Source: Verrucomicrobiota bacterium
GTDB taxonomy: Bacteria > Verrucomicrobiota > Verrucomicrobiia > Limisphaerales > UBA9464
DNA length: 64,000 bases
Assembly (NCBI GenBank): GCA_043788645.1
Contig: JAYVTS010000144.1
Span: 4,736-68,735, forward strand
Reading direction: 5' to 3'
Each line of letters begins with the position of its first letter. Positions within the stretch are counted from its first letter, which is position 1. Shown piece after piece: positions 8,323 to 33,428 of the stretch. A program made the translations under genes and the position numbers. The notes below the pieces were generated by a model that was not told the origin of the DNA, ran no database searches, and was given only the letters and a program-made list of their open reading frames with translations.

Positions 8323-8494
8323 ATGGCAGCCAGGACGAGTATTGATTTCTGTCTTAGTTGCCGTATCGCTCGACGACAATTTTCAAGGCTGCTATCAACA
8401 AGGGACAGGAAAGTTAAATAATATAGAATATTGGTGTCCTGCCCATGAACCTCTCCCCCCAAGAGAGGGAACCGGACGACGACGGGCGACCGGT

Positions 8495-8670
8495 GTTAAT
8501 ACGACCCGCTGAAATAATTAGACCTTGCTGCGGTTGATCCCGTCAAAAGCACGGGACACAACTGCGGTCCCTAAGCGGAAGTATTGAACCGCGGATGCAC
8601 ACGGATGCACACGGATGGGGAGCGTTTGGGGGTTTTCTTATCCGCGTTCATCGGCGTTCATCCGCGGTTC
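8495..8670. repeat. Tandem unit 1 of a ~225-bp duplication; carries an inner hairpin and the GAACCGCGGATG...CATCCGCGGTTC inverted-repeat element (8586..8670)
   Basis: The unit gttaa.ac.acccgctgaaata...ctgcggttgatcccgtcaaaagcacgggacacaac.gcggtcc.taagcggaagtattgaaccgcggatgcacacggatgcaca.ggatgggg...cttatccgcgttcatcggcgttcatccgcggttc recurs almost identically at 8720. Confidence 0.9.
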
Positions 8671-8719
8671 TCTTCGAGTGCAGGGAGAGTAGGAAATCGG
8701 TGTGCAACGGATAGGCTGC

Positions 8720-8896
8720 GTTAAGACAACCCGCTGAAATAGGTGGACGTTTCTGCGGTTGATCCCGTCAAAAGCACGGGACACAACCGCGGTCCGTAAG
8801 CGGAAGTATTGAACCGCGGATGCACACGGATGCACATGGATGGGGAGAGTTTTTTTGGGGTTCTTATCCGCGTTCATCGGCGTTCATCCGCGGTTC
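8720..8896. repeat. Tandem unit 2 of the same duplication (inverted-repeat element at 8811..8896)
   Basis: Near-identical to 8495..8670, with a few substitutions and a small indel in the loop (gagcgtttgggggttttc versus gagagtttttttggggttc). Confidence 0.9.
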
Positions 8897-9125
8897 CATT
8901 TTAGCTTCAGAAAGACTCGCTCCGAGAGAACATCGGGTGAACCGATGTTGAATTGTTGAATTTTCGATTCCCGCTTAGCACGGATATCTGATACTCTTTG
9001 GTCCAGAGACGTAGCGAGTCGTAGCAGAAAGAGTATGAACTATCCGGGCTAGGGCCTCCTCCAGACTACAAAGGACTGTGCTAAGAGCGAAATTGGGCAG
9101 CCCTCAATAGAAACCGATCAAAACG

Positions 9126-12267: not shown

Positions 12268-13134
12268 TTGGGCCGTCGTCAAGCTCCGTTTCACCCCCTG
12301 GATCGGCCCCCCCCCATCGGTGCTCTTGCGCTCGCGCTTGTTGGCGTAACCACGGTTCAGGTGGCGATTAACCTCGCTGATTGGCGTCTCGCCCAGCCCC
12401 TCAACCTGCCCCTTCCCGGCCTCATCAAGGTGCCCCTGGCCGCGGAAACCCTTGCCGCCTTGCGACCCGAGGCCGCGGACCTTCGACTGATCGACCCTGC
12501 CCAGAGCGAAATCGGTTGGTTCTTAGAACGTCCTTTGCACTTACAGCCCGACGCCCCGATCCGCCCTGCGAAATCCTTCAATGTAACCGTGCGCCCGCAA
12601 GCGACCGACGTGCTGGTTGAGACGGGCATCACCGATCCCTTAGTTGGCCTCGCACTGGAAACGGGAAACGGTTCTTTTCTGAAAGCAATTCCCATTGTGA
12701 GCGCGGGAGCACAAGTACTCGAGCTTGACCCCGAGATACTTGCCCACGGGCAATCCGGCCTAGCGGATCTCCGACTCATTTGCGACGGCCGTCAGCGACC
12801 CTTCGTGCGTGAACCGAACCCGGCGTGGCGAACGTTCACCGTCGAACCGACGAGTCAGGATCCGCCGAAACAAACCGCCATCAGCCGCTGGAAATTAAAA
12901 CTGCCGTACGCCGCACTTCCCATCGGGGCCCTCGCGGCCGAATCCGGCGCGACGCTATTTGATCGGAGTGTGACCATGTATGAAACCATCGACGACGGTC
13001 GCGGGGACAAGGTGAACCGTGCCCTGGGAGATGACCGATGGCGGCGCGCACCGGGCGAACCGAAACGGAGCCTCAAACTCCCGCTCGCGGTCCGTCCGAT
13101 CACCGACACGTTCTGGATCGAAATACGTAATTAA
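12268..13134 (+). CDS. DUF3999 family protein, N-terminal 288 codons up to an in-frame TAA
   Basis: TTG start with the signal-like segment RRQAPFHPLDRPPPIGALALALVGVTTVQVA. It sits directly after DUF2339, the usual partner arrangement. The ORF ends at TAA 13132-13134, but the same frame continues to read sensibly (next entry). Confidence 0.7.
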   Translation: MGRRQAPFHPLDRPPPIGALALALVGVTTVQVAINLADWRLAQPLNLPLPGLIKVPLAAETLAALRPEAADLRLIDPAQSEIGWFLERPLHLQPDAPIRPAKSFNVTVRPQATDVLVETGITDPLVGLALETGNGSFLKAIPIVSAGAQVLELDPEILAHGQSGLADLRLICDGRQRPFVREPNPAWRTFTVEPTSQDPPKQTAISRWKLKLPYAALPIGALAAESGATLFDRSVTMYETIDDGRGDKVNRALGDDRWRRAPGEPKRSLKLPLAVRPITDTFWIEIRN

Positions 13135-13462
13135 GACAATGCGCCCCTCCCACTCACTGGCGTAGCACTCAACTACGTCGCGCCCCGAATTCGTTTTCTG
13201 GCGCCAGTCGCACCGGCCACCTCGCTGTATTATGGGAATCCGAACGCGACCGCGCCGAGCTATGATCTGGAACTGGTTGCTGGCGCGTTGTTCGTCGCCG
13301 AAACGGTCGTCGTCACCGGCGCGGCCGAAGAAGTGCTCCGGGGCGGAACCTGAACTCGCTTGGGGTGGTCTCAACACGGCCGATGGCTCTTCTGGGGCGC
13401 GCTAGCCGTTGTGGTGGCGCTGCTCCTCGGGGTCATGCGTCGACTTCTGCCGCCCGTTGTGC
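13135..13462 (+). pseudogene. In-frame continuation of the DUF3999 reading frame beyond TAA (13132) and TGA (13351)
   Basis: In the same frame, ...FWIEIRN-TAA-DNAPLPLTGVALNYVAPRIRFLAPVAPATSLYYGNPNATAPSYDLELVAGALFVAETVVVTGAAEEVLRGGT-TGA-TRLGWSQHGRWLFWGALAVVVALLLGVMRRLL. It ends in a C-terminal TM helix, as expected for the family. Confidence 0.5.
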
Positions 13463-13899
13463 CCCCCCAAACCCATGAGCTTCGGTTGTCGCACGGGTTC
13501 GGTGGGTTCAATCTCGGCCCACAATTTTTCCAATTCTTGCAGGCGGGCAGTTGCCTCGCTGAGTCCTCCGGCGGTGAGCGAACCATCCCGAATCAGCCGT
13601 TGGAGGGCGGAGGTACATTTAACCGGCATGCCCCGCCACGCCCTGATCCTCAACCACCGAAATGGGTTCGTAACAATAGGTTTTTGATGATGAAGACTTC
13701 TGGTCGTGCTGGATGCACTACGCATCACGGGAGGGTGGGTGAACAAACAAGTGTTGGCACGGGTGGGTCGTCACGCCGCCGAAACGCCGCCGCTGCGGCA
13801 AACGGTAGTCAACTAGATTTTCATGGAACCCATCGGCGTAATCGCCGAGGAGAGTTGATCGGAAGTGCGGCCAATGTGCGCAAACGCTTGGAGCATAAG

Positions 13900-14520
13900 C
13901 ATATTTACTTGATTATTATATTGACATGACATGTTTATGTCAACTTTAAAACATGGAATTTTATAAAATAAATTATTTTATCTGTCTATTTATATTGAGA
14001 CGCTGCCCATTTTCTTGGTTCAGAACCACAAATATTATAACTGTATATTTATGTTGACTTAGCTAAACAGTATTTTAGTCAACTAGTTTTGACGGGCTGT
14101 CCATTAGCGTAACCGCCGGGGTGATTTGAGAGTTAGATCATCAAATTTGGCCCTCAGACGCTTGAATCAGACGCTTGAATCAGACGCATGATGACTTGAT
14201 CTTTATATCGACACGGGATCATTAAGTAACAGTTTAACCATGTCAATTTATCCTAATGTGCATCATGTCAGTCTATTTATATTTACAATGTCTATTTCTG
14301 AAATTCTCTGTAACTAACATGCTGACAGAAATTTTATATTGACAATAATTTGTTATAGTGTGCCATTATTATTGTATTTACAAATTTAAAAACATCTTAG
14401 GTATGATGCTTGGATATTTATATTGACAGAGAGTTGTGTCAAATTAAATTAACATGTTGCAATGCAATTTCGGCACAATGATCTTCCGTTGCAAACATTC
14501 TAACAGGATTACTATCTCAA
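13900..14520. other. A+T-rich ORF-free island with a repeated TTTATATTGACA-like word
   Basis: Composition shifts sharply to A+T. The track lists no ORF of 60 or more codons starting inside 13930-14453. Same-orientation hexamer cores (TTGACA or one-mismatch variants, each preceded by TTATAT-like sequence) are at 13921, 13995, 14054, 14208, 14282, 14339, 14377 and 14423. Inverted TGTCAA-like partners are at 13938, 14077, 14241, 14266 and 14437. Confidence 0.8.
14155..14193. repeat. 13-bp tandem repeat, 3 copies (cagacgcttgaat x2, then cagacgcatgatg)
   Basis: Read directly: cagacgcttgaat|cagacgcttgaat|cagacgcatgatg. Confidence 0.9.
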
Positions 14521-15052
14521 AATGGTCCTGCGTAGGGTACCCTGGTTTTGGTTGCGCTGGGGCATTGGATGCTGGCATCAAGTGCGCCAGGACCTCTGGG
14601 TGTTGCCAAACCTGGCACCACCTTCACCGTCAGACAACGATCAGGTCGAGAGTTCTGCGGCTCCCATGAGCTTGATCCTCGAAACCGGAGTTGCCCGGCA
14701 TCAATCTGGCACAAGATCTTGTCGAAGAAGACTTTTGTCGAATCGCACCAGATCACTCTCTCGATACGCTTCGATTCTCCGCCAGCCTTCTTTGCTCAAG
14801 CTTTTGCGCATCTCGACTTCGCTCAACTCCGGTTTCCAGGTTCAATCTTCCTGGCCCTTGCTTTTGGTGAGAAGCGGAAGGAGCGGGAGGAGTTCAGATT
14901 CTGCGGCACAGCAATTCGAGTTCGCATAGCTCCACGCTCCAAAATACGAGGGACTTTAAGGGCTTGCGGGAGTGCGTCCTGCCGCATCCCATTCAAAGAA
15001 TTCTAGAAATTGAGTCTTGCCCACCGGCTAGGTTTCGCGGTTTATCCCTGCC

Positions 15053-15847
15053 ATGTCTGATTGGCTCAGCGTCGTCCTCCTCGGTTTGATCGAGGGCATC
15101 ACCGAATTCCTACCGGTCTCTTCCACCGGCCACTTGCTCCTGGCCGAACATTGGCTGGGAGAACGGTCCGAAGTCTTCAACGTCGTGATCCAAGCGGGCG
15201 CGGTCCTGGCGGTGCTCGCGGTTTTCCGGGTGCGTGCCGCCCAATTGATCTCCCGATGGCGCGAGCCCGCGAACCTGGACTACTTGGTCAAACTCGCCCT
15301 GGCCTTCGGAATTACGGCGGTAGGCGGGCTTCTCCTCAAGAAGGCACACTTTGCATTGCCGAAAACGCTTCCGCCCATCGCGTGGGCCACTCTCGTCGGT
15401 GGCGTGCTCTTTGTGGTGGTTGAAACTTGGCTGAAACGATCGAATCGCAAGGTCTCCGATTATGTGTCTTGGCCCGTGGCAATCGCGGTGGCCGGCGGAC
15501 AATTACTAGCGATTATTTTCCCCGGTGCCTCGCGTTCCGGCACCACCATTTTGTTGGCATTAGTGCTGGGGCTCAGTCGGCCGGCGGCGGTTGAGTTTTC
15601 TTTTCTGCTAGGCATTCCCACTTTGCTCGCCGCCGCCGCCAAAGAAATGAGAGACGCTCTCAAAGAACATGTGCCGCACGAATCTTGGGCCATGATCGGT
15701 CTCGGCACGGCAGTGGCCGCGGTAGCAGCGTTTCTTGTCGTCCACTGGCTATTGGGTTATGTACGGAGTCGCGATTTTCGTCCGTTTGGTTGGTATCGAA
15801 TCGCCTTGGGCGTAGCGATTCTGTTATTGGTTCATTTCGGAGCGTGA
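15053..15847 (+). CDS. uppP: Undecaprenyl-diphosphate phosphatase
   Basis: BacA/UppP signature LIEGITEFLPVSSTGHLLL and FPGASRSGTTI, with 8 predicted TM helices. Confidence 0.92.
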   Translation: MSDWLSVVLLGLIEGITEFLPVSSTGHLLLAEHWLGERSEVFNVVIQAGAVLAVLAVFRVRAAQLISRWREPANLDYLVKLALAFGITAVGGLLLKKAHFALPKTLPPIAWATLVGGVLFVVVETWLKRSNRKVSDYVSWPVAIAVAGGQLLAIIFPGASRSGTTILLALVLGLSRPAAVEFSFLLGIPTLLAAAAKEMRDALKEHVPHESWAMIGLGTAVAAVAAFLVVHWLLGYVRSRDFRPFGWYRIALGVAILLLVHFGA

Positions 15848-25819: not shown

Positions 25820-26047
25820 CTCGACGAGATCGTTGACAGCGGCACCGGGGAGCGATAGCGTCACCTTTTTCCAGCTTCCAACGATGCCCCCGTTCCTCAT
25901 ACTCAAATTGCTATTTGGCTCGTTAGCTTGCTGGTAGGAGTGATTTCACTTTGACAAACCCTGCTGGACAAAAAAAGTTTCTCTCCCCTTTCTAGAATTG
26001 AGGCCTATTCAAATCTAAATTTCACTCGAATCGAGACGGATAGGAAT

Positions 26048-26686
26048 ATGAATGCTCGACGCTTAGCGGTTATATCCATCGGGATTGTTGTCTTCCTCTT
26101 CTGGCAACAGCACCAACAGATGATGGGCTTGAAGACCGAAGGAACCGCTCTTCGCAAGCAGGTCGAGCAAGTAGCAGCGCAGCGGGATGAAGCACGAAAA
26201 TTGGCCGCTCAACTCCGAACAATCGTTGAAGGCTCCGAGTCGGACCGGGGCGAGCTCATACGCTTACGTGGCCAGGCGGCCAGATTGGGTCGGGTGGAAC
26301 AGGAAAATGTCCGCTTTAAAAATGAACGCCAGAACTCGGCCAATCGGCTCAAGTCCCTAAAATCTGCGCCCCCCCTCTCCGAACAGCCGTTGTCGGCGGC
26401 CGAGGTCAATTCCACTCAACTCCCACCCGGCGTCACCAACTTGGGGATCATCGAGTTTTCAGATCGGACCCCGATGCGACTTGATTTGGGGGAAGGCACG
26501 ACATGCCTCGTTACGACGACTCTGCTCGACGACGGCCAACTTAGCATGGTTTTTTCTTTTGAAACGGACGTGGATGGAGTCCCCACTCGGACCGAACAGT
26601 CAGCGACGGTCGTTCCAGGCAAACAATTCGCGATGACCCTTCACGGTGCGCTGATCGCCTTGACACCCACTCTCGGAACCCAATGA
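26048..26686 (+). CDS. Hypothetical membrane-anchored coiled-coil protein
   Basis: N-terminal TM (LAVISIGIVVFLFW), a long charged helical segment and a C-terminal beta-rich domain. I recognise no family. Confidence 0.55.
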   Translation: MNARRLAVISIGIVVFLFWQQHQQMMGLKTEGTALRKQVEQVAAQRDEARKLAAQLRTIVEGSESDRGELIRLRGQAARLGRVEQENVRFKNERQNSANRLKSLKSAPPLSEQPLSAAEVNSTQLPPGVTNLGIIEFSDRTPMRLDLGEGTTCLVTTTLLDDGQLSMVFSFETDVDGVPTRTEQSATVVPGKQFAMTLHGALIALTPTLGTQ

Positions 26687-28246: not shown

Positions 28247-28332
28247 TGGTGGTAGGAACTGGATTCGAACCAGTGAAGGCGTAAGCCAGCAGATTTACAG
28301 TCTGCCCCCGTTGGCCACTTGGGTATCCTACC
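28247..28332 (-). tRNA. tRNA-Tyr (anticodon GTA), class II long variable arm, CCA encoded
   Basis: The reverse complement is GGTAGGATACCCAAGTGGCCAACGGGGGCAGACTGTAAATCTGCTGGCTTACGCCTTCACTGGTTCGAATCCAGTTCCTACCACCA. It folds with acceptor GGTAGGA/TCCTACC, anticodon stem GCAGA/TCTGC with loop CTGTAAA, and T arm ACTGG-TTCGAAT-CCAGT. Confidence 0.92.
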
Positions 28333-28435
28333 ACCCAGCCGTGCTCTTTTGAGCGGGCCGCAATAGAGAAGCCCATCGCTCGCCGACAAGAGGTTTTTCC
28401 AGGAAACTCCCCGTCCGACCCGGTAGCTTCCTCAG

Positions 28436-29392
28436 ATGCCGTCGTCCACCGAAGAGCCAAAGGGCCTTTTCGCCCAGTTTCTTCGCTATCTCGAAGCCGA
28501 AAGACTCGCGTCGCCTCACACACGTCGCAACTACGCCCAGGCCGGGCGCGAATTCGAGCGTTGGCACGTCCGCGTCCACGGGGCGGGTCCGGCTTGGCCC
28601 GAACTGACCCGAGACACCTTTCGCGGATACCTGCGCTGGTTAGGACGAGGTTCGCTGGATGCCCGTACCGTAGCGTTGCGATTCAGCGCGTTGCGTTCGT
28701 TTTACCGCTGGTTGCAACGCCACGAACACACCCAAAGCTCACCACTCCGAGGAGTAGTCTTGCCGAAGCGCACTCGTAAATTGCCCCGATTTCTCTCGGA
28801 AAACCAAATGCGCGACCTCCTCGCCGCGCCGCTGCGCGAACTCGAGCGCCGGTTACCCCTCGACCCGCCCCCGAGCCGAGCAGAAAAAGTCGCGCTCGTC
28901 CGAGACCTCGCCGTCCTCGAACTGTTTTACACTGCCGGCCTGCGGATCAGTGAACTTTGCTCGCTCAGACTCCAACAATTGGACCTCGACTCCCGTCTCG
29001 TGCGGGTCCTGGGGAAAGGCAGGAAAGAGAGGGAAATTCCGGTCGGTCGACCTGCCCTCAACGCCCTGTCCGCCTATTGGCTGGCGGTCGCCCATCCCAA
29101 AACGCCCGACGCGTTTGTGTTTTGGGGCTCCGAACACGGCTCGGACCCCTTGACCCCGCGTACCGTCCAGCGGCGACTCAAATTCTACCTCGCTGCCGCC
29201 CAACTCGATCCCGCGCTGAGTCCGCATAAGCTTCGTCATAGTTTTGCCACCCATCTGTTGAATCGAGGAGCGGACCTCCGCAGTGTCCAAGAACTCCTCG
29301 GGCACGCCCAACTCGCGACCACTCAAGTTTACACGCATGTCTCCCTGGAACGGTTGCAGCAGGTCTATCGAAACGCTCATCCGCGCGCATGA
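28436..29392 (+). CDS. xerC: Tyrosine recombinase, XerC/XerD family
   Basis: N-terminal SAM-like domain (FLRYLEAERLASPHTRRNYAQAGREF) and catalytic residues in LRISEL (R), HKLRHSFATHLL (H..R), LLGH and the Y of TQVYTHV. Confidence 0.8.
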   Translation: MPSSTEEPKGLFAQFLRYLEAERLASPHTRRNYAQAGREFERWHVRVHGAGPAWPELTRDTFRGYLRWLGRGSLDARTVALRFSALRSFYRWLQRHEHTQSSPLRGVVLPKRTRKLPRFLSENQMRDLLAAPLRELERRLPLDPPPSRAEKVALVRDLAVLELFYTAGLRISELCSLRLQQLDLDSRLVRVLGKGRKEREIPVGRPALNALSAYWLAVAHPKTPDAFVFWGSEHGSDPLTPRTVQRRLKFYLAAAQLDPALSPHKLRHSFATHLLNRGADLRSVQELLGHAQLATTQVYTHVSLERLQQVYRNAHPRA

Positions 29393-31287: not shown

Positions 31288-33234
31288 TTATTTGAGGATC
31301 AGCCGACCCCAGTCGTCGGGTCGGCCTTGAACGCCGCTTCGTGGAGCCCAGGCTAAGCGGGACTTATTAATGTTTTCACCCGGCACGGCATTGATTTTGT
31401 CTCCGTCGTAAATCAAAACATTAAAACCGAGTTCGCCCCGGAATTTTGCTGGCCTTCCCAATTCGCGCAACGGAATGGCGACGCGAAGGGTGTATCCAGT
31501 CGGTGTTTTCCAAGAAACTAAGCGCGTGCCCGGTGCGGTTTCTTCGATCAAACCTGGCTTTGCATCCGCATCTCGCACCCCTCGAGCGTGGCCCGCAGAG
31601 TCAAACGGGAATAACCCGAGTTTATAGCAACCCAGCGTGTGTTCAGAACCAGGATGTGGATCGAGACAGAGTTCGACCGAATCACTTCGCCAATGCCCCT
31701 TAATATCGTTGGGAGCAATATTGCTCACCACTTGATCGTCGGCCACCTGGACCTCGATGAAGAGGGTTTCGCCGGCTCGAATGAGATGAACGACCGCGCT
31801 GCTATCCGCGGCGTCCCGTGTTTTTCCCTCCCAAAGATTTGTGTGTGAAATGGCGATCTCTGGGGTTGTATTGGGCCACGCGAAATCTGGGTCGAGTTTG
31901 GGTTCGACTCGGGAGCGAGGCACGGTGATTTGTGGGATCACATGCAAGCGGGCTTTCGCCTGAATGACCGTTCCCAAGGCCGAACCGCCTTCCGCGATCA
32001 GGTCGTGGTCACCCGTCGCCTCGGCGGGCACGGTAAACTGTGCCGTGATTTGGGTTTTATCTCGGGATGTTTCAATCCTCAGCGGCTTCCATCCGGACGG
32101 CCACAGGAGTCTGGGTGCTTCTAATTTCGTTCGGGTACCGGTATTCAGAACCACTGTGTTCATTGAACCAGCGACGACCGGTAGATCGGGGGCGAAACTC
32201 GCGGCCGCGTGATCAATACCTTGCTGGCGGACGAAGGTTTGGTAATTCTCGACTGCAGGGCGGGCAACAAAAGAGAGCACTTCCCGTTTTTCTGGGTTGG
32301 GGGGTGGAAAAACTCGGGGGACGAGCGTGGGCGCGCCGGGCAACGGGAGGCCGCGAAAGAGATCGGTTTCTTCCGCGATGAACGGCACCACACTTTTGAC
32401 GAGTTGCAAACGCTGTGGACGAACGAACCAAGGCGAATTTCCAAAATTTCCGAACCCTTGAGAGCGATGATTCGCTAGGGCTTCACCGGCCAAACGAGCC
32501 GGGATGCGACCGTCGGTCAGGGCATTGGTAGTCGTTAAAGTGGCCATAAACTGGCCGTTTCCGCCAAAGTACAATTTTCGCGGCTGCCAAACGCTGAGAC
32601 CCTCGTGGGTCAATTGCTCAGGAAATCGCTGGGCGTTGGCCGCGGCGTCGAAGGCTTCCGTTGCGAGCCATCCCGCCGCTTGATGGTTGCCGTGCTGGCC
32701 GGGGGTGGGAGCGGGGTTCATCGTCACAATGACCTCTGGACGCAGCAGCCGGACGAGCCGGACCAGTCGTCGGAGTGTCTCTTCGTGACCCCATTTTTCA
32801 AGGGTGACTCGTAAGCTCTCGGTGTAGGCGAAATCTTCGCGTTCAAGAAAATAGGCAAAGCGGACGCCGATCTTGACCAAACACGCCCGCAATTCTGCCT
32901 CACGCAGGAGGCCCAGGCTAGGCCCATATTGCGTGCCGACCATATTACCACCGCCCTCACCGCGGGTGCAATAGACGTGCGCCACCGTCCGCCCTTGTCG
33001 CCAGGCGAGGTCTGCGATCAGCGGAGCAATTCCCGTTTCATCGTCAGGATGAGCAAAAACTCCGAGGACATCCGTCTTGAGCAGAGCGGCGCCTTGGAGC
33101 GGCCCGGAGGACTCCGGTTGCGGAGTCGCTGTGTCCTCACCTTGCAGGCGGGTCCAGGCCAGCAAAGGCACGATGGCCAAGAGTGCAAGACGGACGAACC
33201 CACTGATGACCCGAGCCCGTGAAAGAAGGTGCAT
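31288..33234 (-). CDS. PIG-L family deacetylase with a C-terminal carbohydrate-binding (CBM9-like) domain
   Basis: Signal peptide, then LmbE/PIG-L motif VLGVFAHPDDETG and HGNHQA. The C-terminal ~200 aa (WRSDSVELCLDP, FNVLIYDGD) resemble family-9 sugar-binding modules. Confidence 0.75.
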   Translation of the reverse strand: MHLLSRARVISGFVRLALLAIVPLLAWTRLQGEDTATPQPESSGPLQGAALLKTDVLGVFAHPDDETGIAPLIADLAWRQGRTVAHVYCTRGEGGGNMVGTQYGPSLGLLREAELRACLVKIGVRFAYFLEREDFAYTESLRVTLEKWGHEETLRRLVRLVRLLRPEVIVTMNPAPTPGQHGNHQAAGWLATEAFDAAANAQRFPEQLTHEGLSVWQPRKLYFGGNGQFMATLTTTNALTDGRIPARLAGEALANHRSQGFGNFGNSPWFVRPQRLQLVKSVVPFIAEETDLFRGLPLPGAPTLVPRVFPPPNPEKREVLSFVARPAVENYQTFVRQQGIDHAAASFAPDLPVVAGSMNTVVLNTGTRTKLEAPRLLWPSGWKPLRIETSRDKTQITAQFTVPAEATGDHDLIAEGGSALGTVIQAKARLHVIPQITVPRSRVEPKLDPDFAWPNTTPEIAISHTNLWEGKTRDAADSSAVVHLIRAGETLFIEVQVADDQVVSNIAPNDIKGHWRSDSVELCLDPHPGSEHTLGCYKLGLFPFDSAGHARGVRDADAKPGLIEETAPGTRLVSWKTPTGYTLRVAIPLRELGRPAKFRGELGFNVLIYDGDKINAVPGENINKSRLAWAPRSGVQGRPDDWGRLILK

Positions 33235-33428
33235 GACTTAAAGAACAACGTCCGGCGCAGCCGTAAAGCAAGACCAGGAGTCTTCCTCATCAAAAACCGA
33301 TGGTTACGAACCTCTTTCTATGGGTAAGGATGAGAGAGGACTTGGCATACTCCCAAGCCCTCCTCCTCTACCCCCAAAGTCAGGTCAGCCTGATTCCACC
33401 CGGGATGAGAAGTTCTCGGGCTTTGGCG

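What the first reader, a model, noticed from the sequence alone, without database searches (positions are those of the whole stretch)
13900..14520. ORF-free A+T-rich island packed with a TTTATATTGACA-like word, wedged between a decayed DUF3999 gene and uppP
The window is uniformly G+C-rich and densely coding. Here about 600 bp switch abruptly to A+T-rich sequence, and no ORF of 60 or more codons starts between 13930 and 14453. At least eight same-orientation copies of a TTTATATTGACA-like 12-mer occur (hexamer cores at 13921, 13995, 14054, 14208, 14282, 14339, 14377, 14423). Inverted TGTCAA partners lie at 13938, 14077, 14241, 14266 and 14437. Two of these give TTGACA-N11-TGTCAA (13921-13943) and TTGACA-N8-TGTCAA (14423-14442) palindromes. 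Multiple direct copies of one word over a few hundred bp is the layout of protein-binding arrays: iterons, Tn7/Mu-type transposon ends, or operator clusters. It could also be a promoter island in acquired DNA. None of the neighbouring genes explains it, and the DNA on both sides looks degraded (DUF3999 with stops on the left, 14.5-15.0 kb without a convincing gene on the right).
Basis: seen in the sequence. Interest (0 to 1): 0.65.

Follow-up and report, generated by a model that had tools for sequence, protein, structure and literature searches.

The report
Tandem promoter and mini-gene cassettes
The A+T-rich island is a conserved tandem array, best read on the opposite strand, of cassettes each carrying a near-perfect bacterial promoter and a candidate 29-30-codon gene, plus extra orphan copies of the promoter-proximal segment; it is real and under constraint, but it belongs to a fairly ordinary class of thing and its function is unknown.

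Summary
Window 13900-14520 is 31% G+C against about 59% around it. It holds 7 strong and 1 weak same-strand copies of TTTATATTGACA, against 0.27 expected from shuffles of the island itself.

The word is only the 3' end of a 28-nt unit. The units form two full tandem repeats (13806-14075 and 14076-14360) and a truncated third.

A syntenic relative (L101, flanking genes 92% identical) and a third lineage (L099) carry the same array. The 28-mers are 80-84% identical and the spacers 60-62%. Spacings of 74, about 57 and 84 bp are preserved.

On the minus strand each unit reads as a cassette: an A/T tract, -35 TTGACA, 17-18 bp, -10 TATAAT or TATAAA, 12 nt, then ATG and a 29-30-codon ORF. Five copies match the promoter consensus 12, 11, 11, 11 and 8 of 12. 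The ORF is intact in unit A here and in unit B of L101.

The other 28-mers are orphan copies of the -10-to-ATG segment.

Iterons, Tn7 ends, CRISPR, dif, oriC and an acquired promoter island are not supported. The peptide's function is unknown. A recurrent alternative junction at 14510-14563 is unexplained.

The parts
13806..14075 (-). Tandem unit A: a G+C-normal 'head' (13806-13898) followed by three 28-nt units.
   Evidence: Homologous end to end with unit B (local alignment z=21 against shuffles; alignment). Orthologous copy in L101.
13813..13902 (-). Candidate small ORF A, 29 codons: MLMLQAFAHIGRTSDQLSSAITPMGSMKI.
   Evidence: The ATG lies 12 nt after the -10 in 5 of 5 class-1 copies. N-terminus M-x-[MIV]-[LI]-Q-[AS]-F in 5 of 5. 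C-terminal QL..AITPMG is shared with the intact 30-codon ORF of L101 unit B. No Pfam or NCBIfam match.
13915..13954 (-). Consensus sigma-70-type promoter of cassette A: -10 TATAAT (13920-13915), 17-bp spacer, -35 TTGACA (13943-13938), and an A/T-rich UP-like tract (13954-13944).
   Evidence: 12/12 match. The equivalent promoters score 11/12 in L101 c1, L101 c4 and L099 s1. Alignment.
13899..13926 (+). 28-nt unit c1 (class 1). On the minus strand it spans spacer end, -10, a 12-nt leader and ATG.
   Evidence: Matrix score 27.8. 82% identical to L101.
13973..14000 (+). 28-nt unit c2 (orphan copy).
   Evidence: Matrix score 24.6. 64% identical to L101.
14032..14059 (+). 28-nt unit c3 (orphan copy).
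   Evidence: Matrix score 27.1. 79% identical to L101.
14076..14360 (-). Tandem unit B: head plus units c4, c5 and c6. The cassette is decayed in this genome.
   Evidence: Orthologues in L101 and L099.
14154..14192 (.). 13-bp tandem triplication (TCAGACGCTTGAA x2.9) that truncates small ORF B to MRLIQASDSSV* (ORF remnant 14154-14189, minus strand).
   Evidence: The motif is single-copy in L101.
14186..14213 (+). 28-nt unit c4 (class 1 of unit B). The minus-strand promoter is degenerate here (GTTACT-17-TATAAA, 8/12) but 11/12 in L101 and L099.
   Evidence: 86% identical to both L101 and L099.
14260..14287 (+). 28-nt unit c5 (orphan copy).
   Evidence: 79-83% identical in relatives.
14317..14344 (+). 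28-nt unit c6 (orphan copy).
   Evidence: 75-89% identical in relatives.
14355..14382 (+). Weak unit c6b. Probably not a real member of the family.
   Evidence: Matrix score 22.8 in the window, but no matrix hit at the equivalent place in L101 or L099.
14401..14428 (+). 28-nt unit c7 (orphan copy, part of truncated unit C). Its + strand TTGACA, with TAAATT 16 bp downstream, is a possible rightward promoter.
   Evidence: 79% identical to L101 and 93% to L099. TTGACA-16-TAAATT scores 10/12. The adjacent block 14438-14453 is 16/16 identical in L101.
14495..14522 (+). Degenerate last unit (c9), at the A+T to G+C boundary.
   Evidence: Matrix score 8.8. Aligns with the class-3 units.
14523..14679 (.). 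Conserved G+C-normal segment ('seg') between the array and uppP.
   Evidence: 88% identical to L099 and 80% to L100 and L101. No coding signal against L100.
14510..14563 (.). Recurrent alternative-junction point.
   Evidence: Two independent Logan contigs (automated assemblies of public read sets) end at 14509 and one starts at 14556. L100 and L101 are 99.6% identical to the right of the equivalent point and unrelated to the left.

Best explanation
The island is a vertically inherited, tandemly duplicated set of small cassettes that read on the minus strand.

Cassette layout. Each full cassette has, in order:
- an A/T-rich UP-like tract;
- a -35 TTGACA;
- a 17-18-bp spacer that is itself a palindrome (TTGACAT-N9/10-ATGTCAA);
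- a -10 TATAAT or TATAAA;
- a fixed 12-nt leader;
- an ATG opening a 29-30-codon ORF.
The G+C-normal 'head' of each unit is this ORF. The A+T-rich remainder is promoter and upstream DNA.

The 12-mer TTTATATTGACA is the reverse complement of spacer end plus -10. It is the best-conserved part of a 28-nt module running from the spacer end to the start codon. Class-1 copies (c1, c4) sit in full cassettes. The others (c2, c3, c5, c6, c7) are orphan copies of this module, lacking a -35 and an ORF.

Shown: the hierarchy of repeats; the conservation of modules and of their spacing in three lineages; the near-consensus promoters.

Inferred:
- the promoters fire leftward, giving a near-leaderless mRNA with a leader of about 6 nt;
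- the ORF is translated, with one functional copy per genome (unit A here, unit B in L101);
- the orphan modules persist either because a factor recognising this segment binds them (a repressor or RNA polymerase), or through gene conversion from the selected class-1 copies.

The function of the peptide is not known.
For: Word enrichment holds against local composition.

The repeat is a 28-nt unit.

Units A and B are homologous end to end (z=21; per-segment identities).

L101 is syntenic. Its flanks are 92% identical and the 12677-14679 region about 80%.

Conservation is site-specific.
- Window against L101: sites 79.6%, 14-nt cores 86.7%, spacers 61.6%; Fisher p = 3e-5 and 2e-6.
- Window against L099: sites 84.2%, spacers 59.9%.

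Spacing is preserved: 74/59/154/74/57/84 in the window, 74/55/141/75/56/83 in L101, and 74/59/84 in L099.

Minus-strand promoters score 12/12, 11/12, 11/12 and 11/12 in four of five class-1 copies.

The cassette alignment shows a fixed 12-nt gap from -10 to ATG, and the N-terminus M-x-[MIV]-[LI]-Q-[AS]-F in 5 of 5 copies. Substitutions there are conservative or synonymous (CAA/CAG, GCG/GCT).

The two intact ORFs are 29 and 30 codons and share QL..AITPMG.

The transcribed head shows no conserved RNA fold, and the island as a whole has no fold signal. Rfam gives nothing.
Against: There is no transcription or translation evidence.

A 29-30-codon ORF stays open by chance about a quarter of the time (my estimate, (61/64)^30). 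Variable sites in codons 2-7 are not clearly biased to third positions.

The orthologous heads are poorly conserved (51-56%). This is read here as reciprocal decay of redundant copies, but it could equally mean the heads are unconstrained.

The peptide has no homologue in Pfam or NCBIfam and is absent from the protein collection.

Nothing explains why the orphan modules keep both their sequence and their spacing.

The promoter consensus used is that of E. coli sigma-70. The one host promoter inspected, upstream of tRNA-Tyr, is much less consensus-like.
Confidence: 0.55

Rival explanations
1. The region is a pure protein-binding array. The 28-nt direct repeats would be operators or architectural sites for an unknown DNA-binding protein, building a nucleoprotein complex that controls neighbouring promoters (leftward ones, or uppP). 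The small ORF would be fortuitous.
For: Sites are conserved over spacers, and their spacing is fixed at 74, about 57 and 84 bp in three lineages. The palindrome TTGACAT-N9/10-ATGTCAA has conserved arms and variable centres, as an operator would. This overlaps with the best explanation rather than excluding it.
Against: No candidate regulator lies next to the array. The only DNA-binding genes found in the 64 kb are a Crp/Fnr-type regulator at 1997-2716 and a Xer-like recombinase at 28436-29392. It does not account for the fixed 12 nt from -10 to ATG, or for the conserved ATG and N-terminal codons. Gene conversion could mimic selection on the sites.
Confidence: 0.2
2. The cassettes are a type I toxin-antitoxin-like locus: tandem small-toxin genes under strong promoters, held in check by antisense RNA.
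For: The architecture matches that used to discover such loci: tandemly duplicated ORFs of about 29 codons, similarity extending beyond the ORF, and a long intergenic region that varies between strains (PMC2887945, zorO/orzO example).
Against: The peptides fail the published hydrophobic-stretch criterion of 10 of 15 residues; the best stretches are 8 and 7. No convincing antisense promoter or terminator was found. No structured RNA signal was found.
Confidence: 0.1
3. The array is the arm region of an attachment site at the edge of a large excisable, invertible or otherwise rearranging segment. The direct repeats would be arm-type sites for a recombinase and its accessory proteins.
For: There is a precise, recurrent alternative junction 0-40 bp right of the array in two lineages. 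The DNA is A+T-rich and carries many direct repeats next to a breakpoint.
Against: There is no integrase within 14 kb to the left or 14 kb to the right. The array spans about 700 bp with 28-nt units, much larger than known att arms (my knowledge of lambda-type sites). No reciprocal junction sequence was recovered. The breakpoints could be assembly artefacts.
Confidence: 0.08
4. The array is a relic of Tn7/Mu/Tn5053-type transposon ends, that is, orphan arrays of transposase-binding sites.
For: Each unit holds three direct sites spaced 75 bp or less, and each site ends in ...ACA-3'. This resembles a Tn7-like left end. Adjacent insertions can multiply ends (PMC8649781).
Against: There is no oppositely oriented array anywhere in the window. 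There is no tnsB or other transposase in the 64 kb. The array is orthologous and constrained in relatives, which a dead relic would not be. Plasmid and phage collections give no match.
Confidence: 0.03
5. The region is a promoter island in horizontally acquired, silenced DNA, or simply a composition effect.
For: The segment is A+T-rich in a G+C-rich genome and contains promoter-like hexamers. Promoter islands are described in E. coli (PMC3661553).
Against: Full promoter-like sites are not enriched (4 found, 2.7 +/- 1.6 expected). The word count far exceeds local-composition shuffles. The locus is syntenic in a relative rather than recently acquired. The one other A+T-richer patch in the window (25901-26101) has no copy of the word.
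Confidence: 0.03

Closest known systems
Tandemly duplicated small-ORF loci in long intergenic regions (type I toxin-antitoxin loci such as zorO-orzO, ibs-sib and ldr-rdl; PMC2887945)
   Same: Two or more tandem copies of an ORF of about 29 codons. Similarity extends beyond the ORF into promoter and flanks. The intergenic region is long and varies between strains. Redundant copies decay.
   Different: The peptide is not hydrophobic enough (8 and 7 of 15 residues, against the criterion of 10). No antisense RNA gene was identified. Extra orphan copies of the promoter-proximal module with fixed spacing are not a described feature. The host phylum is Verrucomicrobiota, judged from the record titles of the closest MAGs (metagenome-assembled genomes).
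Consensus sigma-70 promoters with UP element, as at rRNA and phage early promoters
   Same: TTGACA-17-TATAAT with an A/T-rich tract directly upstream. Phage contigs found with the same word pair show this arrangement.
   Different: Its spacer is a conserved palindrome. The -10-to-ATG segment has been copied several times without a -35.
Tn7-like transposon end arrays (PMC8649781)
   Same: Arrays of sites of 20-odd bp in direct orientation, three per unit, spaced 75 bp or less.
   Different: No inverted partner array, no transposition genes, and orthologous conservation in a housekeeping context.
Promoter islands of E. coli (PMC3661553)
   Same: A+T-rich DNA holding multiple promoter-like elements.
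   Different: No excess of complete promoter-like sites, not linked to acquired genes, and a discrete repeat family rather than a diffuse density of signals.

Membership tests
Sigma-70-type promoter (class-1 copies, minus strand) | -35 TTGACA and -10 TATAAT separated by 16-18 bp | tested here: met
   12/12 at 13943-13915. 11/12 in L101 c1, L101 c4 and L099 s1; 8/12 in window c4.
Sigma-70-type promoter (class-1 copies, minus strand) | Transcription starts about 7 nt after the -10 | not testable with these tools
   No RNA data are available. The predicted start is about 13908.
Small protein-coding gene | Start codon, frame and length conserved in relatives, with substitutions that spare the protein | tested here: inconclusive
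   The ATG and the first 7 codons are conserved in 5 of 5 copies. Two intact ORFs of 29 and 30 codons share QL..AITPMG. Three copies are truncated, frameshifted or cut by a contig end, and there is no clear third-position bias.
Type I toxin-antitoxin locus (criteria of PMC2887945) | Small ORF (16-70 aa) tandemly repeated within one intergenic region | tested here: met
Type I toxin-antitoxin locus (criteria of PMC2887945) | Putative transmembrane stretch: at least 10 of 15 residues from I, V, L, F, C, M, A | tested here: not met
   The best stretches are 8/15 (window A) and 7/15 (L101 B).
Type I toxin-antitoxin locus (criteria of PMC2887945) | Antisense or divergent antitoxin sRNA | tested here: inconclusive
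   No conserved structured RNA and no terminator-like site in the island. Expression cannot be tested.
Tn7-like transposon ends (PMC8649781) | Arrays of sites of about 20 bp, spacing 75 bp or less | tested here: met
   Within-unit spacings are 74/59 and 74/57. The units are 28 nt.
Tn7-like transposon ends (PMC8649781) | A second array in inverted orientation at the other end | tested here: not met
   No strong minus-orientation match to the matrix anywhere in the 64 kb.
Tn7-like transposon ends (PMC8649781) | tnsB or another transposase within about 20 kb | tested here: not met
   Pfam scans of window ORFs found no transposase. Only 14 kb is available on the left.
Iteron-type replication origin | Adjacent rep gene, closely spaced iterons of 17-22 bp, and DnaA boxes | tested here: not met
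   No rep gene (Pfam calls as above). Spacing is 57-154 bp. There is no DnaA-box cluster: 5 matches in the window against 7.2 expected, none in the island.
Chromosomal oriC or dif | DnaA boxes for oriC, or a 28-bp Xer site with conserved arms for dif | tested here: not met
   The best match to seven remembered dif sequences has 10 of 28 mismatches.
CRISPR array | Near-identical repeats with regular spacers, and cas genes nearby | tested here: not met
   Repeats are 60-80% identical to one another. Gaps are 46/31/126/46/29/10/18 nt. No cas genes were found (Pfam calls).
Promoter island (PMC3661553) | Extreme density of potential start sites, and association with acquired genes | tested here: not met
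   4 promoter-like sites against 2.7 expected. The locus is syntenic in L101.
Known RNA family | Match to an Rfam covariance model | tested here: not met
   No match at E of 1 or below in 13000-15500. Only a chance RNase P fragment hit in L099.

The most novel reading that the evidence does not exclude
The array of fixed-spacing 28-mers, together with the precise alternative junction at 14510-14563 seen in two lineages, marks a site-specific DNA rearrangement module. It would be the arm and core of an attachment or switch site at the edge of a large segment (over 14.5 kb) that excises, inverts or is exchanged. The rearrangement would couple or uncouple the strong leftward cassettes and uppP from different neighbours.
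Probability: 0.08. Interest if true: 0.6.

Novelty: new variant of a known kind. Interest (0 to 1): 0.35.

Why it matters
If the reading is right, this adds an unannotated small-gene family to an uncultured verrucomicrobial lineage. The family sits under a textbook-strength promoter, is duplicated in tandem, and shows what looks like reciprocal loss of paralogues. It also shows how an apparent 'binding-site array' can be the shadow of promoter modules on the other strand.

The conserved orphan copies of the -10-to-ATG module, with their fixed spacing, are not explained by any described mechanism. The same holds for the recurrent breakpoint beside them. Both are cheap to test.

The practical value is modest: a candidate strong promoter for Verrucomicrobiota genetics, and a caution for annotating A+T-rich islands.

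Tried and rejected
Database searches with no useful result:
- Rfam on the region and on L099: nothing.
- tRNA/tmRNA scan: nothing in the region.
- blastn against plasmid and phage collections: no match.

Hypotheses tested and dropped:
- oriC and dif: the DnaA-box and dif searches were negative.
- A structured RNA: fold z-scores are -0.25 and -1.16, and the consensus fold of the transcribed heads shows no covariation.
- CRISPR-like reading: rejected on irregular spacing.
- Small + strand ORFs (for example 13953-14057): their start codon is not conserved in L101.
- The right flank as a remnant of the PIG-L paralogue: no.
- 'Seg' as a protein-coding gene: a coding-like signal against L099 (12 synonymous to 11 non-synonymous changes) is not reproduced against L100.

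Comparative searches that led nowhere:
- UppP-based search of GTDB genomes: the closest are 74-51% identical, without synteny or an island.
- Exact word-pair scan of viral contigs: ordinary phage promoters in A+T-rich phages.
- Exact word-pair scan of metagenome contigs: 59 loci, consisting of eukaryote-like satellites, A+T-rich promoters and an interrupted IS110-like gene. None carries the 28-nt unit.
- Homology search with the left-flank 114-aa ORF: only itself.
- Literature search for the word itself: irrelevant hits.
Full report

Yes. G+C drops from 0.56-0.66 to 0.29-0.37 between about 13800 and 14500. It is the only strong A+T-rich segment in the 64 kb.

TTTATATTGACA with at most 2 mismatches occurs seven times on the + strand inside the island. 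Across the whole window there are 12 matches against 1.74 expected. Dinucleotide-preserving shuffles of the island itself give a mean of 0.27 and a maximum of 3 in 2000 trials. This removes the composition-effect refutation.

The only other A+T-richer patch in the window (25901-26101) has no copy of the word. The rest of the genome could not be examined.

No ORF of 60 or more codons starts in the island.

**2. Anatomy**

*The unit is 28 nt.* The word is the 3' end of a unit of about 28 nt, with 17-copy consensus acATnaTGaCtgnATaTTTATATTGACA. Sequence downstream of TTGACA is not conserved among copies.

*The units are arranged hierarchically.* 13806-14075 (unit A) and 14076-14360 (unit B) are homologous end to end, with local-alignment z=21 against shuffles and about 59% identity. 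Each consists of a G+C-normal 'head' of 95-110 bp followed by three 28-mers, spaced 74/59 bp in A and 74/57 bp in B. A truncated third unit holds c7 and degenerate copies.

The repeated structure therefore starts at 13806, inside G+C-normal DNA. The inverted TGTCAA at 14437 reads better as a degenerate direct copy, because it aligns with the class-2 units in the column alignment.

**3. Relatives**

*Searches that failed.* UppP-based retrieval from GTDB genomes gave only distant, non-syntenic MAGs without an island. Exact word-pair scans of viral and metagenome contigs gave phage promoters and satellites.

*Searches that worked.* The useful relatives came through proteins.
- L101 was reached through a 90%-identity cluster member of the DUF2339 protein. 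Its gene order is DUF2339, an intact 695-aa DUF3999-like gene, the array, seg, uppP, mnmE. Flanking genes are 92% identical and the 12677-14679 region about 80%.
- L099 was reached through an ORF overlapping the right flank. It carries units B and C plus seg at about 76% identity.
- L100 is 99.6% identical to L101 from seg rightwards. It has unrelated DNA where the array should be.
- Logan contigs from four sequencing runs reproduce the island at 99.9-100% identity.

*What the comparison shows.* The island is not a misassembly and is not recently acquired.

| Comparison | 28-mers | 14-nt cores | Spacers | Fisher p |
|---|---|---|---|---|
| Window vs L101 | 79.6% | 86.7% | 61.6% | 3e-5 (28-mers), 2e-6 (cores) |
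| Window vs L099 | 84.2% | not pooled | 59.9% | not tested |

Site spacing is also kept:

| Sequence | Spacing between successive sites (bp) |
|---|---|
| Window | 74 / 59 / 154 / 74 / 57 / 84 |
| L101 | 74 / 55 / 141 / 75 / 56 / 83 |
| L099 | 74 / 59 / 84 |

The weak copy at 14377 is not conserved.

**4. What the units are**

*The + strand reading fails.* The TTGACA copies have no conserved -10, and complete promoter-like sites are not enriched (4 found, 2.7 expected).

*The minus strand gives a full promoter.* The scan found a perfect TTGACA-17-TATAAT at 13943-13915. The equivalent class-1 positions score 11/12 in L101 c1, L101 c4 and L099 s1, and 8/12 in window c4.

*The five class-1 copies align as one cassette*:
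- an A/T tract, ATGTTTTAAAt;
- -35 TTGACA;
- a palindromic spacer, TTGACAT-N9/10-ATGTCAA, with conserved arms and variable centre;
- -10 TATAAT or TATAAA;
- exactly 12 nt;
- ATG.

*A small ORF follows the ATG.* The first codons read MLMLQAF, MRLIQAS, MLIIQAF, MFMIQAF and MLVLQSF in the five copies. The substitutions are conservative or synonymous.

Two copies are intact. The window unit A ORF (13902-13813) has 29 codons and the L101 unit B ORF has 30. Both end in QL..AITPMG plus 3-4 residues.

The other copies are damaged or incomplete:
- Window B is cut by a 13-bp triplication.
- L101 A has lost 18 nt.
- L099 runs off its contig.

The A+T-rich remainder is promoter and upstream DNA.

*The orphan copies.* The remaining 28-mers (c2, c3, c5, c6, c7) are copies of the -10-to-ATG segment without a -35 or an ORF.

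*The head is not a structured RNA.* It shows no conserved fold.

*The peptide is an orphan.* It matches nothing in Pfam or NCBIfam and is absent from the protein collection.

**5. Mechanism and confidence**

Shown:
- the repeat hierarchy;
- constraint on the modules and their spacing;
- near-consensus promoters conserved across lineages.

Inferred:
- leftward transcription from about 13908, giving a leader of about 6 nt;
- translation of a 29-30-residue peptide;
- one functional copy per genome, with reciprocal decay of the other copy;
- orphan modules kept either by binding of a factor (a repressor of the palindromic or -10 region, or RNA polymerase) or by gene conversion from the class-1 copies.

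I put 0.55 on this cassette reading.

The main rival, at 0.2, is a pure binding-site array with a fortuitous ORF. It overlaps with the best explanation rather than excluding it.

A type I toxin-like locus is an attractive analogue in architecture (PMC2887945). The peptides fail its hydrophobic-stretch criterion, with 8 and 7 residues of 15 against the 10 required.

Features tested and not met for the other candidates:
- Tn7-like ends (criteria from PMC8649781): no opposed array and no transposase in the 64 kb.
- Iterons and oriC: no rep gene and no DnaA-box cluster.
- dif: the best match has 10 of 28 mismatches.
- CRISPR: irregular spacing and no cas genes.
- E. coli-type promoter islands (PMC3661553): no excess of complete promoter-like sites, and the locus is syntenic.

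**6. Surroundings**

The left neighbour is a decayed DUF3999-like gene. It has two in-frame stops and a deletion of about 826 nt relative to L101.

Between that gene and unit A lies an 80-nt copy of the 5' region of the PIG-L/CBM9 gene at 33.2 kb.

To the right, seg (14523-14679) is conserved non-coding DNA upstream of uppP. It is followed by a window-specific MITE-like insertion at 14680-14855.

The rest of the window is housekeeping genes.

**7. Unexplained**

Two independent Logan contigs end exactly at 14509 and another starts at 14556. In the sister lineage, L100 and L101 switch from unrelated to 99.6% identical within 8 nt of the same point.

This could be the edge of a large rearranging segment, ectopic recombination, or an assembly artefact. 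Read-level data are needed to decide.

**8. Verdict**

The finding is real and its sequence is under constraint. It is best described as tandem promoter and small-ORF cassettes, with orphan promoter-proximal repeats, at a conserved intergenic site.

It is not a transposon end, an iteron origin or an acquired promoter island. It is a new variant of a known kind of locus, of modest interest (0.35). Two loose ends are worth a cheap follow-up: the function of the orphan modules, and the breakpoint at 14510-14563.

Noticed in passing
window 14680-14855 (inverted-repeat arms 14669-14693 and 14824-14848): A 176-bp MITE-like insertion with 25-nt imperfect terminal inverted repeats. It is present in the window but absent from the otherwise 92-93% identical L100 and L101.
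   Followed up: partly
window 14510-14563; L100 1-248 against L101 6385-6632: A recurrent alternative junction. Two Logan contigs end at 14509 and one starts at 14556. L100 and L101 are 99.6% identical to the right of the equivalent point and unrelated to the left.
   Followed up: partly
window 8490-8900: Two tandem copies, each about 235 bp, of an intergenic element. Each copy holds a long hairpin (GAACCGCGGATG...CATCCGCGGTTC). It lies between prpD and the DUF2339 gene.
   Followed up: no
window 13637-13720 (+) and 33267-33334 (-); L101 5757-5830: An approximately 80-nt motif, 82% identical between the two window copies. At 33.3 kb it is the 5' region of the PIG-L/CBM9 gene (31288-33234, minus strand). 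Beside the array it is an orphan copy pointing rightwards towards the small ORF, and it is conserved in L101.
   Followed up: partly
window 12268-13480: The DUF3999-like gene carries in-frame TAA (13132) and TGA (13351). It lacks about 826 nt relative to the intact 695-aa orthologue in L101 and L103. Pfam does not recognise the window copy, even when it is read through the stops.
   Followed up: yes
window 14523-14679: The conserved segment upstream of uppP. Against L099 it shows 12 synonymous to 11 non-synonymous codon changes in the frame of ORF 14548-15006, plus one compensatory change in GCCAGG-N18-CCTGGC. Against L100 there is no coding signal. L100 and L101 carry a 12-nt tandem insertion (ACCTTAACCTTA).
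   Followed up: partly
window 28247-29392: A Xer-like tyrosine recombinase (318 aa) lies directly beside tRNA-Tyr. It is the only recombinase found in the window.
   Followed up: no
L095, L098, L103, L024, L097: Short-read assemblies repeatedly break inside or at the edge of the array: at window 13940 (the c1 hairpin), 14168 (the 13-bp tandem), head A of L101, and 14509.
   Followed up: no
L042 and L088 (metagenome contigs): An IS110-like transposase gene interrupted near its 5' end by 2-3 copies of a 52-bp repeat (GTTAACCAGGGACAGTCACCCTTTATATTGACAAATGGCCTTACCGGCGTTAG). It is unrelated to the finding.
   Followed up: no
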